A stretch of 16,455 bases of DNA, taken from contig CAYMED010000032.1 in NCBI GenBank assembly GCA_964389655.1, positions 1-16,455 of the forward strand, given 5' to 3'. This DNA comes from an uncultured Candidatus Poseidoniales archaeon (GTDB taxonomy: Archaea; Thermoplasmatota; Poseidoniia; Poseidoniales; CAYMED01). The notes beneath the pieces are model-generated. The model ran no database searches and had not been told where the DNA came from. It saw only the letters and a program-made list of their open reading frames with translations. Of the stretch, positions 12,676-15,871 are shown piece after piece (position 1 is the first letter of the stretch; every line of letters begins with the position of its first letter). A program made the translations under genes and the position numbers.

Positions 12676-13701
12676 TCAGACGGCCTCAATAGGCCATGGT
12701 AACGGGGTCTCGTCTGTGCGGAGTTCTTGAATGATCGCACTCGAGAGAATGGGGGTTGTTTCTCCATACTCTAGGTGTCGTTGCCCTAAAAGAGCGATCA
12801 TTGTGCCATTGTCCACACAATACTGCTTTGGTGGGGCATGTGCTGTACCTCCACGTTCAAGTGCCATCTGATCGGCCATCTCGCGTAACCTTGCATTACA
12901 GGCTACACCACCACCGAGCAAGAGGTTGGCTTTCCCAGCATGTGCCATCGCCCGTTCAGCAACTTCAATACACGCTGCAAAAGCATGTTCTTGAATTGAC
13001 CAAGCCACTCCCTCAAGCGGCCTTCCCATCGATAATAGCCGTTCTGCGGAAGTCATTATTCCGCTAAATGCCAGATCCATCCCATGAACCGGATATGGGA
13101 GCTCAAAGTCGCTGATATCAGCCTCCGGGTTATTGGAAGTCCACGCGTCTGCCAGTGTCTCGATTTTTGGACCCCCTGGGAATGGAATTCCCTGATTACG
13201 GGCAAATTTATCCAGCATGTTTCCGATTCCGATATCGAGTGTTTCACCCAACACCCTATATCTTCCCGACAAGCGAGCAATCACCTGCGTATTGCCCCCT
13301 GAAACATAGAGTAGCACGGGGTCTTGGACGTTGCATAATCGGCGCCCAATTTCAATGTGGGCGACGCAGTGATTAACTCCAATCAGGGGGACCCCTAATT
13401 CACTCGAAAGTGCGCGCGAAACCATTGCACCTACACGAAGGCAGGGTGCCATTCCAGGTCCCTGGCTGAATGCAATGGCGACAATAGGCTCATCAATGGG
13501 TTCACTGCCTTCATGTAACTCCTCAAGTAACTTACCAGCTACGCTTGCATGATGGTCGGCTGCCTCACGTGGGTGTATCCCCCCTTCTAATGGCCGAACA
13601 GCAGATGATACAGAGCGCCTAGGCACCCCTTTTTGATCAACCCAGCCAATTGAAAACGTATGGGCTGTCGATTCGATCCCAAGCACTGCCCCTTGCTCCA
13701 T
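12676..13701 (-). CDS. kae1: tRNA N6-adenosine threonylcarbamoyltransferase Kae1 (KEOPS), not fused to Bud32
   Basis: VLGIESTAHT, GGIHPREAADHH, FSQGPG, VNHCVAHIE, LYVSGGNTQ, GETLDIGIGN and DNGTMIA motifs. Start moved to ATG 13701 to avoid overlap with hutI (13725 and 13731 are alternatives). Confidence 0.95.
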   Translation of the reverse strand: MEQGAVLGIESTAHTFSIGWVDQKGVPRRSVSSAVRPLEGGIHPREAADHHASVAGKLLEELHEGSEPIDEPIVAIAFSQGPGMAPCLRVGAMVSRALSSELGVPLIGVNHCVAHIEIGRRLCNVQDPVLLYVSGGNTQVIARLSGRYRVLGETLDIGIGNMLDKFARNQGIPFPGGPKIETLADAWTSNNPEADISDFELPYPVHGMDLAFSGIMTSAERLLSMGRPLEGVAWSIQEHAFAACIEVAERAMAHAGKANLLLGGGVACNARLREMADQMALERGGTAHAPPKQYCVDNGTMIALLGQRHLEYGETTPILSSAIIQELRTDETPLPWPIEAV

Positions 13702-13755
13702 CACGTTAGTTGGGCGAAAGGCCATACTCATATGCCCTGCGCCTTTCCACGACTC

Positions 13756-15069
13756 GTGAAGCAGCTCTGGGTCGACTGCGGACCCGTTGTACATCTCTCG
13801 GGATTGCAGGAAGGGGTATTGCACGCGGGACTGGCAGAGCGCGGAACAAACATTTCGGGTGCGGGTGAGTGGGCCCTCGCCTTTGAAGATGGAATGATCA
13901 TAGAATCCGGGCCTCTCGATGATGTGGTTGAGAATGTTCTCGGTGATGCTTATTTACCGAGATATGGCTCTCGAATTGATCTGATTGGGGATTGCGAAAT
14001 TCGTCGTCTTGAGGGTAGCGCAGTAATGCCGGGTTTGGTCGATTCACACACCCACCTTGTGTGGGCTGGTGACCGTTCAAGGGAAGTTTCCATGCGGCAT
14101 GCTGGGATGACGTATTCTGAAATCGCTAGTGCAGGTGGCGGCATACATTCCACCGTAGGTGCAACGAGGTCGGCGAAATATGCCGATTTGGTTCGCGAAG
14201 CCCAAAGGCGCTTGGCTGTGATGGGCCAACATGGAACTTGCGTTGTCGAGGCAAAAAGTGGCTACGGGTTGGATGTGGAATCAGAACTGAGTTTGCTGTC
14301 AGGAATTCATGAGGCTTCTGAACACACCCCACAAGAAATTCATGCGACATGGTTGGGTGCTCATGATCTCCCGCCAAGCGAATCAGACCGACCACGTGAT
14401 TTGCAGCGGAAGGAGTATGTAGATCACTTAATTTCTGAACAACTGCCCGCCGTTCTTGAGCAAGGAATCGCTTCTTCTCTTGACGTGTTTTGTGAACCAG
14501 GGTGGTTCGATTTAGAGGATACTGAGATGATTTCGCGGGCAGGTCTCAGAAGTGGTTTGAATCTGAGGTTACACGTGGATGAATTTTGTGACGGTGGTGG
14601 TGCAGGCCTAGCAGCAGAATTGGGGGCCAATTCAGCAGATCATGCACACCATTCATCGTTGGAGTCTCGCGCATCCTGTCAAGAAAGTGGAGTTTTGCAA
14701 ACTTTTCTTCCAGGTACTCCACATGTGCTGGGAGAAATGTCCCTGCCTCCTGCATCTACATGTTCAGAAAACAGATGGGCATGGGGTTTAGCAACTGATT
14801 ATAATCCAAACTGCAGGATTAAGTCTCTGGCATTCATTGCGAGTTTAGCGGTACAGAGAATGGGGGTCGATCCACTTAATGCCGCAATAGCATGTACTCA
14901 TAATCCAGCGACATCGCTAGCGTCAGGGAGTGGGAGACTGGTTCCTGGAATGCGAGCAGATGTTGCCGTAATTAGGGGCCCGCATTGGGAATTGTTTTCA
15001 CAGACCCCTGGGACCTCACCTTTCGAATTGGTGATGGCAGGCGGGTCAATCATACATGAGAGGGGGTAA
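13756..15069 (+). CDS. hutI: Imidazolonepropionase
   Basis: PGLVDSHTHLVWAGDR, GMTYSEIASAGGGIxSTVxATR, EAKSGYGL, TWLGAH, DVFCE, SADH and ATDYNP motifs. Start is probably GTG 13756 (ATG 13732 is an alternative). Confidence 0.92.
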   Translation: MKQLWVDCGPVVHLSGLQEGVLHAGLAERGTNISGAGEWALAFEDGMIIESGPLDDVVENVLGDAYLPRYGSRIDLIGDCEIRRLEGSAVMPGLVDSHTHLVWAGDRSREVSMRHAGMTYSEIASAGGGIHSTVGATRSAKYADLVREAQRRLAVMGQHGTCVVEAKSGYGLDVESELSLLSGIHEASEHTPQEIHATWLGAHDLPPSESDRPRDLQRKEYVDHLISEQLPAVLEQGIASSLDVFCEPGWFDLEDTEMISRAGLRSGLNLRLHVDEFCDGGGAGLAAELGANSADHAHHSSLESRASCQESGVLQTFLPGTPHVLGEMSLPPASTCSENRWAWGLATDYNPNCRIKSLAFIASLAVQRMGVDPLNAAIACTHNPATSLASGSGRLVPGMRADVAVIRGPHWELFSQTPGTSPFELVMAGGSIIHERG

Positions 15070-15130: not shown

Positions 15131-15451
15131 ATGATTGTTGAAATTGTTGTCTGCACGGCTCGGATGGGGTCGGAAGTTCGTTTGCGTCGACTTTTAGAGA
15201 CCCGGGCAAAATACCGGGGGACACTAAAGGGTTGTTTGTCATCGGTGGTTGGAGAGGCCATTGATGGCACATCTGTCTTGCTTAGCCATTCCATCTTTTC
15301 AGATGAAGAGGCTTGGTCTGGTAGCAGTGAACGCGTCCAGAAAAGATATGATGCAAGGGATGGGGGTCTAGAGGCATGTATGTCGGGGCCAGCACTTGTG
15401 GGTGTCTTCGAAATGCCTGATTTACTCCATAATTCGGGTGATGTCGCATAA
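15131..15451 (+). CDS. Antibiotic-biosynthesis-monooxygenase-like (dimeric alpha-beta barrel) small protein
   Basis: GGTGA RBS at 15120-15124. Size and pattern (MIVEIV..ARxG.E....L......GCLS...G...S.F.DEEAW) resemble the ABM family. Confidence 0.65.
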   Translation: MIVEIVVCTARMGSEVRLRRLLETRAKYRGTLKGCLSSVVGEAIDGTSVLLSHSIFSDEEAWSGSSERVQKRYDARDGGLEACMSGPALVGVFEMPDLLHNSGDVA

Positions 15452-15470
15452 TCAGGGTTATGCGACATCA
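15439..15470. other. Perfect 13-6-13 inverted repeat; candidate dif-like tyrosine-recombinase (XerA) site
   Basis: TGATGTCGCATAA-TCAGGG-TTATGCGACATCA. The arms are exact reverse complements, the spacer is 6 bp and asymmetric, and the inner boundaries are CATAA/TTATG as in E. coli dif. Confidence 0.7.
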
Positions 15471-15572: not shown

Positions 15573-15597
15573 TTCACAGAACTTGCGCTTTTGTGAA
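15573..15597 (-). terminator. Possible stem-loop just downstream of tRNA-Val
   Basis: Minus strand TTCACAAAA-GCGCAAG-TTCTGTGAA (8 of 9 pairs), starting about 6 nt after the tRNA discriminator base. Confidence 0.3.
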
Positions 15598-15603
15598 GGG
15601 TAA

Positions 15604-15676
15604 TGGGCTCGGCAGGAATTGAACCTGCGATCTCCGCCATGTCAAGGCGACGTCATAACCCCTAGACCACGAGCCC
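15604..15676 (-). tRNA. tRNA-Val (GAC), intron-less, CCA not encoded
   Basis: GGGCTCG TG GTCTAGGGGTTATGAC G TCGCC TT GAC AT GGCGG AGATC GCAGG TTCAATT CCTGC CGAGCCC A forms a full cloverleaf. Confidence 0.97.
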
Positions 15677-15715
15677 TGAATGCGGCAATGACCTGGGCTA
15701 TTTGGATGATTCGAC

Positions 15716-15871
15716 TTATCCAATGATCTTGGAGATTTTGCCATTGCACCCTGTTTCGGAGCATGAACCAGCTATTCTCGGACGGCCATTCGACATCATC
15801 AGCTTTTTTGGGTCCTTGATTAGGCCGTATGTTTTGCACTTTAGGCAGTATCCATTCCATTTTTCTGTCAT
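15716..15871 (-). CDS. Small basic zinc-ribbon protein, DUF5679-like (51 aa)
   Basis: Below the ORF-track cutoff. MTEKWNGYCLKCKTYGLIKDPKKLMMSNGRPRIAGSCSETGCNGKISKIIG shows the YCxKC...KDP...NGRP...GxC...C pattern. GGTGA RBS at 15876-15880. Confidence 0.85.
   Translation of the reverse strand: MTEKWNGYCLKCKTYGLIKDPKKLMMSNGRPRIAGSCSETGCNGKISKIIG

What the first reader, a model, noticed from the sequence alone, without database searches (positions are those of the whole stretch)
15439..15470. Candidate archaeal dif (Xer recombination) site: perfect 13-bp arms with a 6-bp spacer
Seen: TGATGTCGCATAA/TCAGGG/TTATGCGACATCA, the longest perfect inverted repeat I found in the window, with no oligo-T tail on either strand. 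Known: dif sites are two arms of about 11 bp around a 6-bp spacer with TAA/TTA inner edges, and E. coli dif is GGTGCGCATAA-TGTATA-TTATGTTAAAT. By manual alignment the inner 11-bp arms match E. coli at 7/11 (CGCATAA) and 8/11. Archaea use a single XerA, so symmetric arms are expected. Inference: this is the chromosome-dimer-resolution site, or a Xer-exploited integration site, of an uncultured marine archaeon. It would be easy to miscall as a terminator. No recombinase gene is in the window.
Basis: partly seen in the sequence, partly recalled or inferred. Interest (0 to 1): 0.8.

Follow-up and report, generated by a model that had tools for sequence, protein, structure and literature searches.

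The report
Archaeal chromosome dimer-resolution site (dif)
This 32-base palindrome is very probably the single chromosomal site where the XerA recombinase of an uncultured marine Group II archaeon resolves chromosome dimers; it is an expected housekeeping element, located here for this group for the first time as far as the searched literature shows.

Summary
The palindrome is real: 13-bp perfect arms and a 6-bp spacer at 15439-15470. About 0.003 such repeats are expected by chance in the window.

- The core GTCGCATAA-N6-TTATGCGAC occurs once in the window's own 2.1-Mb genome. It also occurs once per genome in the congener and in 52 of 58 genomes of the sister family, named Poseidoniaceae in public records.
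- The spacer is always 6 bp. Flanking DNA is unconserved, and neighbouring proteins are only 35-50% identical.
- The same core occurs once per genome in other Thermoplasmatota families with unrelated neighbours. In two of them it lies directly upstream of xerA.
- The own genome encodes one tyrosine recombinase, and it is XerA-like.
- In a closed relative the site lies in the zone where GC, AT and k-mer skews reverse with terminus polarity.
- The second large family has a diverged core, also once per genome, at the same syntenic place.

Terminator, operator and mobile-element att readings fit poorly.

Verdict: this is a new member of a known kind, an archaeal XerA/dif site. XerA binding and recombination are inferred, not shown.

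The parts
15439..15470 (.). Full palindrome (13-6-13), the proposed dif site
   Evidence: It is unique in the own genome at up to 3 mismatches.
15441..15451 (.). Left 11-bp arm, a proposed XerA half-site; it contains the ABM ORF stop codon at 15449-15451
   Evidence: The inner 9 bp are conserved across relatives. The same 11-bp arm is seen in many other lineages.
15452..15457 (.). 6-bp central region, the proposed strand-exchange region
   Evidence: Its length is invariant (6 bp) in all 31 f1/f3 genomes when 4-9 bp was allowed. Its sequence varies.
15458..15468 (.). Right 11-bp arm, a proposed XerA half-site
15131..15451 (+). ABM-like 106-aa gene whose end overlaps the left arm; conserved syntenic neighbour
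   Evidence: Pfam PF03992 at E 1.6e-4. tblastn hits in all f1/f3 loci.
13660..15069 (+). Amidohydrolase gene; a syntenic marker of the dif locus across the whole order
15604..15676 (-). tRNA-Val(GAC), convergent with the ABM gene; the site lies between the two 3' ends
   Evidence: Assembly contigs break here because the tRNA is a shared repeat.
15716..15871 (-). DUF5679 zinc-ribbon gene upstream of tRNA-Val; this two-gene unit is inverted relative to Poseidoniaceae

Best explanation
The palindrome is the chromosomal dif site of this Poseidoniales archaeon, meaning the core recombination site of its single XerA tyrosine recombinase.

Proposed mechanism, taken from the characterised Pyrococcus, Thermoplasma and Thermococcus XerA/dif systems and from bacterial Xer systems:
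- One XerA monomer binds each 11-bp arm.
- Two dif sites on a chromosome dimer synapse as a XerA tetramer.
- The catalytic tyrosines cleave at the two edges of the 6-bp central region.
- Strands are exchanged through a Holliday junction, and the dimer becomes two monomers before division, without FtsK.

Shown here: the architecture, uniqueness per genome, sequence-level purifying selection, fixed spacing, independence from the locus in other lineages, physical linkage to xerA in two lineages, presence of an intact XerA-like gene, and position in a terminus-type skew-reversal zone in one closed relative.

Inferred: XerA binding, the cleavage positions and dimer resolution.
For: 1. Architecture. 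The site is 11-6-11 (13-6-13 here) with TAA/TTA inner edges. This matches the published description of archaeal dif (PMC8371274; PMC11840125 Methods).

2. Copy number. There is one copy in the own genome. There is exactly one copy in the congener and in 25/29, then 52/58, genomes of family f3, and reversed-pattern controls give almost nothing. With a looser core and spacers of 4-9 bp allowed, 29/29 f3 genomes have one site, always with 6 bp.

3. Selection. The 24-28-bp core is conserved while the adjoining DNA shows no conservation, and neighbouring proteins are only 30-50% identical.

4. Independence from the locus. The same core occurs once per genome in families f7, f15, f17, f22 and f23 (GC 39-68%), where no homologues of the window's neighbouring genes are found. 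In G063 and G074 it lies less than 10 bp upstream of a xerA gene scoring 269 and 280 bits on NF040815, above the 220-bit cut-off. About 14 of roughly 50 non-Poseidoniales genome hits have a Xer-like gene within about 1 kb.

5. Recombinase. The own genome has a single tyrosine recombinase. NF040815 (XerA) is its best family at 211 bits, and the R-K-H-R-H-Y catalytic residues are intact. Its best solved relatives are Thermoplasma and Pyrococcus XerA. XerA is single-copy in 59/61 relatives.

6. Position. In the closed 2,064,136-bp relative G003 the site is at 1,269,042. The cumulative GC-skew maximum is at 1,228,295 and the AT-skew minimum at 1,217,009. Ten skewed k-mers reverse between 1.18 and 1.32 Mb, and gene-strand bias changes sign in the same region.

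7. Order-wide synteny. Family f2 carries a diverged core, one per genome in 37/41 (control 1/41), at the same place downstream of the amidohydrolase.

8. Stability. The site is unchanged in contigs from four marine metagenomes of two studies, with no joints. One of these samples may be the source of this DNA.
Against: - No binding or recombination data exist for this organism.
- The terminus evidence comes from one closed relative, and its skew is noisy.
- Neither Orc1/Cdc6 gene of G003 lies at the inferred origin.
- In the single-contig f2 genome G026 the site is only 356-455 kb from the two cdc6 genes, and its skew could not be computed.
- Within the order the site is always in the same synteny, so a locus-specific function cannot be excluded from the order's genomes alone. 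The argument against that rests on other families.
- The own XerA scores just below the curated NF040815 cut-off (211 against 220 bits).
- One arm position changes symmetrically in both arms (C, T or G). That is also what a base-paired stem would show.
- I could not align the site to experimentally validated archaeal dif sequences, because those are held only as figures.
Confidence: 0.85

Rival explanations
1. It is a hairpin transcription terminator or RNA stability element for the convergent ABM gene and/or tRNA-Val.
For: The site lies between two convergent 3' ends and overlaps a stop codon. It folds into a strong hairpin on both strands, with z-scores of -4.2 and -3.9. One arm position co-varies in both arms among relatives.
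Against: There is no T-tract on either strand, and the terminator scan does not call it. Archaeal termination is known to depend on oligo-T, not on hairpins (established knowledge). There is one copy per genome rather than many, and only 4 perfect hairpins with arms of 13 bp or more exist in 2.1 Mb. Eight of nine inner arm bases and the 6-nt loop length are invariant across families with GC 39-68%. Many Poseidoniaceae keep a C/A mismatch in one orientation. The core occurs in both orientations relative to the flanking genes. In other families it has unrelated neighbours, including a position upstream of xerA.
Confidence: 0.03
2. It is a palindromic operator for a dimeric transcription factor, or another non-recombinase DNA-binding protein, acting on neighbouring genes.
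For: Perfect dyad symmetry with fixed spacing is typical of dimeric DNA-binding proteins. The synteny is conserved across the order. In Poseidoniaceae the site lies about 250 bp upstream of the DUF5679 gene.
Against: In the window it lies at two convergent 3' ends, not in a promoter. In other families the same core has unrelated neighbours. Its recurrent physical linkage is to Xer-family recombinase genes. The 11-6-11 layout with TAA/TTA edges, and the similarity to E. coli dif, including the spacer in Poseidoniaceae (5 of 6 bases), point to a tyrosine-recombinase core.
Confidence: 0.07
3. It is an attachment site of a mobile element (an att site, or a Xer-exploited integration site) rather than the chromosomal dimer-resolution site.
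For: Twenty-five viral-collection contigs carry the exact core, two of them with a Xer-like integrase 1-2.5 kb away. A tRNA gene lies 134 bp away. The contig ends 985 bp beyond the site.
Against: No second copy (attL/attR pair) is found in the genome at up to 3 mismatches. The site sits in the same housekeeping synteny across three families. No viral hit has Group II-like genes. The contig breaks are explained by the tRNA repeat, and no alternative joints are seen at the site in four metagenomes.
Confidence: 0.05

Closest known systems
Archaeal XerA/dif systems: Pyrococcus abyssi and Thermococcales (Cortez 2010, PMC2958812), Thermococcus kodakarensis (PMC11840125), Thermoplasma acidophilum dif2 (cited in PMC8371274 and PMC11840125)
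   Same: Both have a single XerA. The site is unique per genome, with 11-bp inverted arms, a 6-bp spacer and TAA...TTA inner edges. It lies apart from xerA in some lineages and forms a xerA/dif module in others. It lies between convergent genes, as does the T. kodakarensis dif, and in or near a skew-reversal zone.
   Different: The arm sequence is closer to bacterial dif than the 14-18 of 28 positions reported for Thermococcales. The arms here are perfectly symmetric to 13 bp. The site overlaps a stop codon. The core occurs in both orientations among close relatives. There is no experimental evidence here.
Escherichia coli XerCD/dif
   Same: Both have the 11-6-11 layout. Seven of 11 and 8 of 11 arm positions match. 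In Poseidoniaceae the spacer matches the E. coli spacer at 5 of 6 positions.
   Different: The arms are symmetric, consistent with one recombinase rather than a XerC/XerD pair. No FtsK-type control is known in archaea (PMC5357621, PMC8371274).
Single-recombinase xer/dif modules: XerS/difSL, XerH/difH, and the haloarchaeal dif upstream of the xerA operon
   Same: In two Thermoplasmatota families, and in many bacterial and archaeal hits, the same core abuts a Xer-family gene.
   Different: In Poseidoniales xerA and the site are far apart: 51 kb against 1,269 kb in G003 and 7 kb against 978 kb in G026. No dif-like palindrome lies next to xerA.

Membership tests
dif (Xer core recombination site) | Two inverted arms of about 11 bp around a 6-bp central region, with TAA/TTA inner edges | tested here: met
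   Spacing is invariant at 6 bp when 4-9 bp was allowed.
dif (Xer core recombination site) | Single copy per chromosome | tested here: met
   There is one copy in the own genome, which is 93% complete in 104 contigs. There is one per genome in relatives.
dif (Xer core recombination site) | A cognate Xer recombinase encoded in the genome | tested here: met
   The genome has a single PF00589 gene at G000:C6. NF040815 (XerA) is its best family at 211 bits, just under the 220-bit cut-off. The catalytic residues are intact, and the best PDB hits are XerA structures 5HXY and 4A8E.
dif (Xer core recombination site) | Sequence conserved among relatives independently of the flanking DNA and genes | tested here: met
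   The flanks are unconserved. Other families have different neighbours.
dif (Xer core recombination site) | Location in the replication-termination or skew-inversion region | tested here: inconclusive
   This was met in the one closed relative tested, G003: the site lies 41-52 kb from the cumulative GC-skew maximum and AT-skew minimum and inside the k-mer reversal zone. The skew is noisy, the origins are unresolved, the own genome is too fragmented, and a second closed genome could not be fetched.
dif (Xer core recombination site) | Bound and recombined by the Xer protein | not testable with these tools
   This needs gel-shift, half-site cleavage and plasmid recombination assays with the cognate XerA.
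Intrinsic (hairpin plus T-tract) terminator | GC-rich stem followed by a T-run, occurring at many gene ends | tested here: not met
   There is no T-run, the scan does not call it, and it is unique in the genome.
Integrated mobile element att site / Xer-exploiting element | Two copies of the core flanking an inserted element | tested here: not met
   No second copy is found at up to 3 mismatches, and no joints are seen at the site in four metagenomes.

The most novel reading that the evidence does not exclude
The Poseidoniales dif may be an orientation-free site that flips repeatedly. Between two congeners exactly the 28-bp core is inverted while both flanks stay collinear, and both spacer orientations are common across Poseidoniaceae. 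The arm sequence has also shifted as a block in the second large family, where XerA is retained. If XerA itself catalyses the flips (antiparallel synapsis of symmetric arms), or if they arise by cruciform or template switching, this would be natural evidence that archaeal XerA/dif works without the directional control that FtsK imposes in bacteria. It would also give a ready case of recombinase-site co-evolution across an abundant uncultured order.
Probability: 0.35. Interest if true: 0.55.

Novelty: new member of a known kind. Interest (0 to 1): 0.4.

Why it matters
Marine Group II archaea (Poseidoniales) are among the most abundant planktonic archaea and are uncultured. Their replication and chromosome-segregation machinery is known only by inference.

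A defined, order-wide dif motif, with one sequence class for the window's family and Poseidoniaceae and a diverged class for the other large family, has several uses:
- It gives a physical marker of the fork-convergence region, useful for orienting and closing metagenome-assembled genomes and for growth-rate estimates from read depth.
- It gives a concrete substrate for biochemical work with recombinant XerA.
- It provides a search handle for plasmids or viruses that exploit XerA in these hosts.

It also stops this hairpin from being annotated as a terminator.

Tried and rejected
- GC skew on the own genome's contigs is dominated by local noise, and the window's contig is only 16 kb, so it gave no information.
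- In G003 the site is equidistant from the two Orc1/Cdc6 genes (568 and 561 kb). This was not reproduced in G026, where the distances are 455 and 356 kb, so I treat it as coincidence.
- A search for a dif-like palindrome next to xerA in 12 Poseidoniales loci found none.
- An ABM protein search in family f2 found nothing. The amidohydrolase was used as the syntenic anchor instead.
- For viral carriage, 25 IMG/VR contigs hold the exact core, but none shares genes with Group II genomes beyond two generic conserved genes and two Xer-like genes. There is therefore no evidence for magrovirus carriage.
- Contig ends close to the site in several assemblies looked suggestive. They are explained by assembly breaks at the neighbouring tRNA, and such proximity is expected by chance in assemblies with 50-300 contigs.
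- No RNA holder was listed among the public runs, so transcript ends could not be examined.
- The sequences of experimentally validated archaeal dif sites are in figures or supplements that are not held. No direct alignment to them was made.
- Searching papers for Poseidoniales together with 'dif site' returned nothing.

Full report
OBSERVATION. The window holds a perfect inverted repeat at 15439-15470, with 13-nt arms and a 6-nt spacer. It is the longest perfect repeat in the window. About 0.003 are expected by chance in the window and about 0.4 in the whole 2.1-Mb genome, which holds only four perfect repeats with arms of 13 nt or more. No T-run follows it on either strand, and the terminator scan does not call it.

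CONTEXT. The window is an entire 16.4-kb contig of a 104-contig, 93%-complete genome. The left arm contains the stop codon of a conserved 106-aa ABM-like gene at 15131-15451 on the + strand. That gene follows an amidohydrolase at 13660-15069. A tRNA-Val(GAC) at 15604-15676 on the - strand converges on the site.

THE OWN GENOME. The site is unique at up to 3 mismatches. The genome encodes one tyrosine recombinase, on contig C6. Its best family is the archaeal XerA equivalog NF040815, at 211 bits against a 220-bit cut-off. The catalytic R, K, HxxR, H and Y residues are all present. Its closest solved structures are Thermoplasma and Pyrococcus XerA.

RELATIVES IN THE ORDER.
- The core GTCGCATAA-N6-TTATGCGAC, at up to 2-3 mismatches, occurs exactly once in the congener and in 25/29, then 52/58, genomes of family f3. 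Reversed-pattern controls are nearly empty.
- Public record titles name these genomes Candidatus Poseidoniaceae, Poseidonia or MGIIa.
- With a looser core and spacers of 4-9 bp allowed, all 29 f3 genomes, the congener and the own genome have one site, always with a 6-bp spacer.
- The neighbourhood is syntenic throughout: amidohydrolase, ABM, the site, DUF5679 with tRNA-Val, then a 100-aa ORF.
- Neighbouring proteins are only 30-50% identical, and the DNA on both sides of the core shows no conservation. The 24-28-bp core is therefore under sequence-level selection.
- The spacer varies. It is mostly TGTATG or TGTGAG, against TGTATA in E. coli.
- Many Poseidoniaceae keep one C/T asymmetry between the arms. 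That asymmetry breaks pairing on one strand.

INDEPENDENCE FROM THE LOCUS.
- In a 401-genome sample of the phylum, the same core occurs once per genome in families f7, f15, f17, f22 (4/9) and f23 (5/5). Their GC content ranges from 39 to 68%.
- Those loci have no homologue of the window's neighbouring genes.
- In G063 and G074 the site lies less than 10 bp upstream of a bona fide xerA gene scoring 269 and 280 bits.
- A scan of one genome per prokaryotic species found the core in Thermoplasmata, DPANN archaea, Methanoperedens, candidate-phyla-radiation bacteria and others. These hits often carry the same 11-bp arm as here (ATGTCGCATAA). About 14 of roughly 50 non-Poseidoniales loci have a Xer-family gene within about 1 kb.
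- Twenty-five viral-collection contigs carry the core, two of them with a Xer-like integrase nearby. None resembles Group II archaea.
- The motif is therefore a widespread Xer-type core. In Poseidoniales it is a fixed chromosomal feature.

POSITION ON THE CHROMOSOME. G003 is a single 2,064,136-bp contig of Poseidoniaceae, with the site at 1,269,042. The cumulative GC skew peaks at 1,228,295 and has its minimum at 28,159. The cumulative AT skew has its minimum at 1,217,009 and its maximum at 98,538. Ten k-mers chosen for opposite skew in the two halves reverse between 1.18 and 1.32 Mb. Gene-strand bias is positive from 0.2 to 1.0 Mb and negative from 1.3 Mb onward. By the usual polarity this is the fork-convergence side. 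The signal is noisy. The two Orc1/Cdc6 genes, at 701 and 1,830 kb, are not at the inferred origin. This is one genome, so I rate this criterion as supportive but not settled.

THE OTHER LARGE FAMILY. Family f2 is presumably Thalassarchaeaceae/MGIIb; that name is my inference. It lacks the core but has XerA in 29/30 genomes. Using the amidohydrolase as an anchor, I found a diverged palindrome, CYGATAA-N6-TTATCRG with G/C also seen at the variable position. It lies at the same syntenic place. It occurs exactly once in 37/41 genomes, against 1/41 for the control. The congener of the window's organism has the intermediate arm (G at the variable position). The site is therefore order-wide, and its arms have drifted symmetrically.

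RIVALS.
- A terminator or RNA hairpin is contradicted by uniqueness, invariant arm sequence and loop length across very different GC contents, a tolerated mismatch, both orientations relative to the flanking genes, and the lack of a T-tract.
- An operator is contradicted by the position between convergent 3' ends here and by unrelated neighbours elsewhere.
- A mobile-element att site is contradicted by the single copy, the stable housekeeping synteny, and the absence of alternative joints in four marine metagenomes, where the site is identical.

MECHANISM. By homology with characterised XerA/dif systems (PMC2958812, PMC3646895, PMC8371274, PMC11840125), XerA monomers bind the two arms. Two sites on a chromosome dimer synapse, the tyrosines cleave at the spacer edges, and a Holliday-junction pathway yields monomers without FtsK. 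None of these steps is shown here.

NOVELTY. Archaeal dif sites are established. TAA-N6-TTA palindromes with 11-bp arms are their hallmark, and both separated and adjacent xerA/dif arrangements are known (PMC5357621, PMC11840125). No held paper pairs Poseidoniales with a dif site. This is a new member of a known kind. Three side observations are of modest interest: the core flips, there are two arm classes, and the arms are close to bacterial and candidate-phyla-radiation arms.

Noticed in passing
L016:1501-1528 versus L019:1501-1528 (two genomes of one Poseidoniaceae genus); also the window versus L004: Exactly the 28-bp core is inverted (100% identity in reverse) while both flanks stay collinear. 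Across loci with an ABM neighbour, the spacer reads in the T-first orientation in 39 rows and flipped in 24; these rows include duplicate genomes. The window and its congener also appear flipped relative to each other. The mechanism is unknown; candidates are cruciform or template switching, or antiparallel XerA synapsis.
   Followed up: partly
window 15604-15871 versus L008:1769-2041: The two-gene unit DUF5679 zinc ribbon plus tRNA-Val(GAC) is inverted in the window relative to all Poseidoniaceae loci. Here it is transcribed toward the site; there it is transcribed away from it.
   Followed up: partly
G003:C1 (closed relative): 701,157; 1,269,042; 1,829,565: The site lies 568 kb and 561 kb from the two Orc1/Cdc6 genes, within about 4 kb of their midpoint. 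In the single-contig f2 genome G026 the two cdc6 genes are only 99 kb apart and the site is 356-455 kb away, so the symmetry may be coincidence. In both genomes xerA is near coordinate 0 and the site is at about 61% of the contig.
   Followed up: partly
G000:C6:30748-30786, G000:C4:45894-45923, G000:C9:28790-28820: These are three other perfect inverted repeats in the own genome, with arms of 13-15 bp and loops of 9, 4 and 5 nt. They are unrelated in sequence to the dif core.
   Followed up: no
L212-L291 (genome-contig hits): The same 11-bp arm as in the window recurs in Saccharibacteria, Berkelbacteria, Moraniibacteriota, Bdellovibrionales and DPANN archaea, often with a similar spacer. This suggests one very widely shared dif class across bacteria and archaea.
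   Followed up: partly
window 15573-15710: Public assembly contigs from four marine metagenomes all break at the tRNA-Val gene, where summed depth rises to the thousands because the tRNA is shared among organisms. This explains why dif-bearing contigs of many assemblies end close to the site.
   Followed up: yes
G043:C4:297256-298140 and G060:C5/C29: One Poseidoniaceae genome has a second, divergent Xer-like recombinase at 90 bits, possibly a mobile-element integrase. One f2 genome has two copies of the site, each beside an amidohydrolase fragment; this is probably assembly or strain duplication.
   Followed up: no
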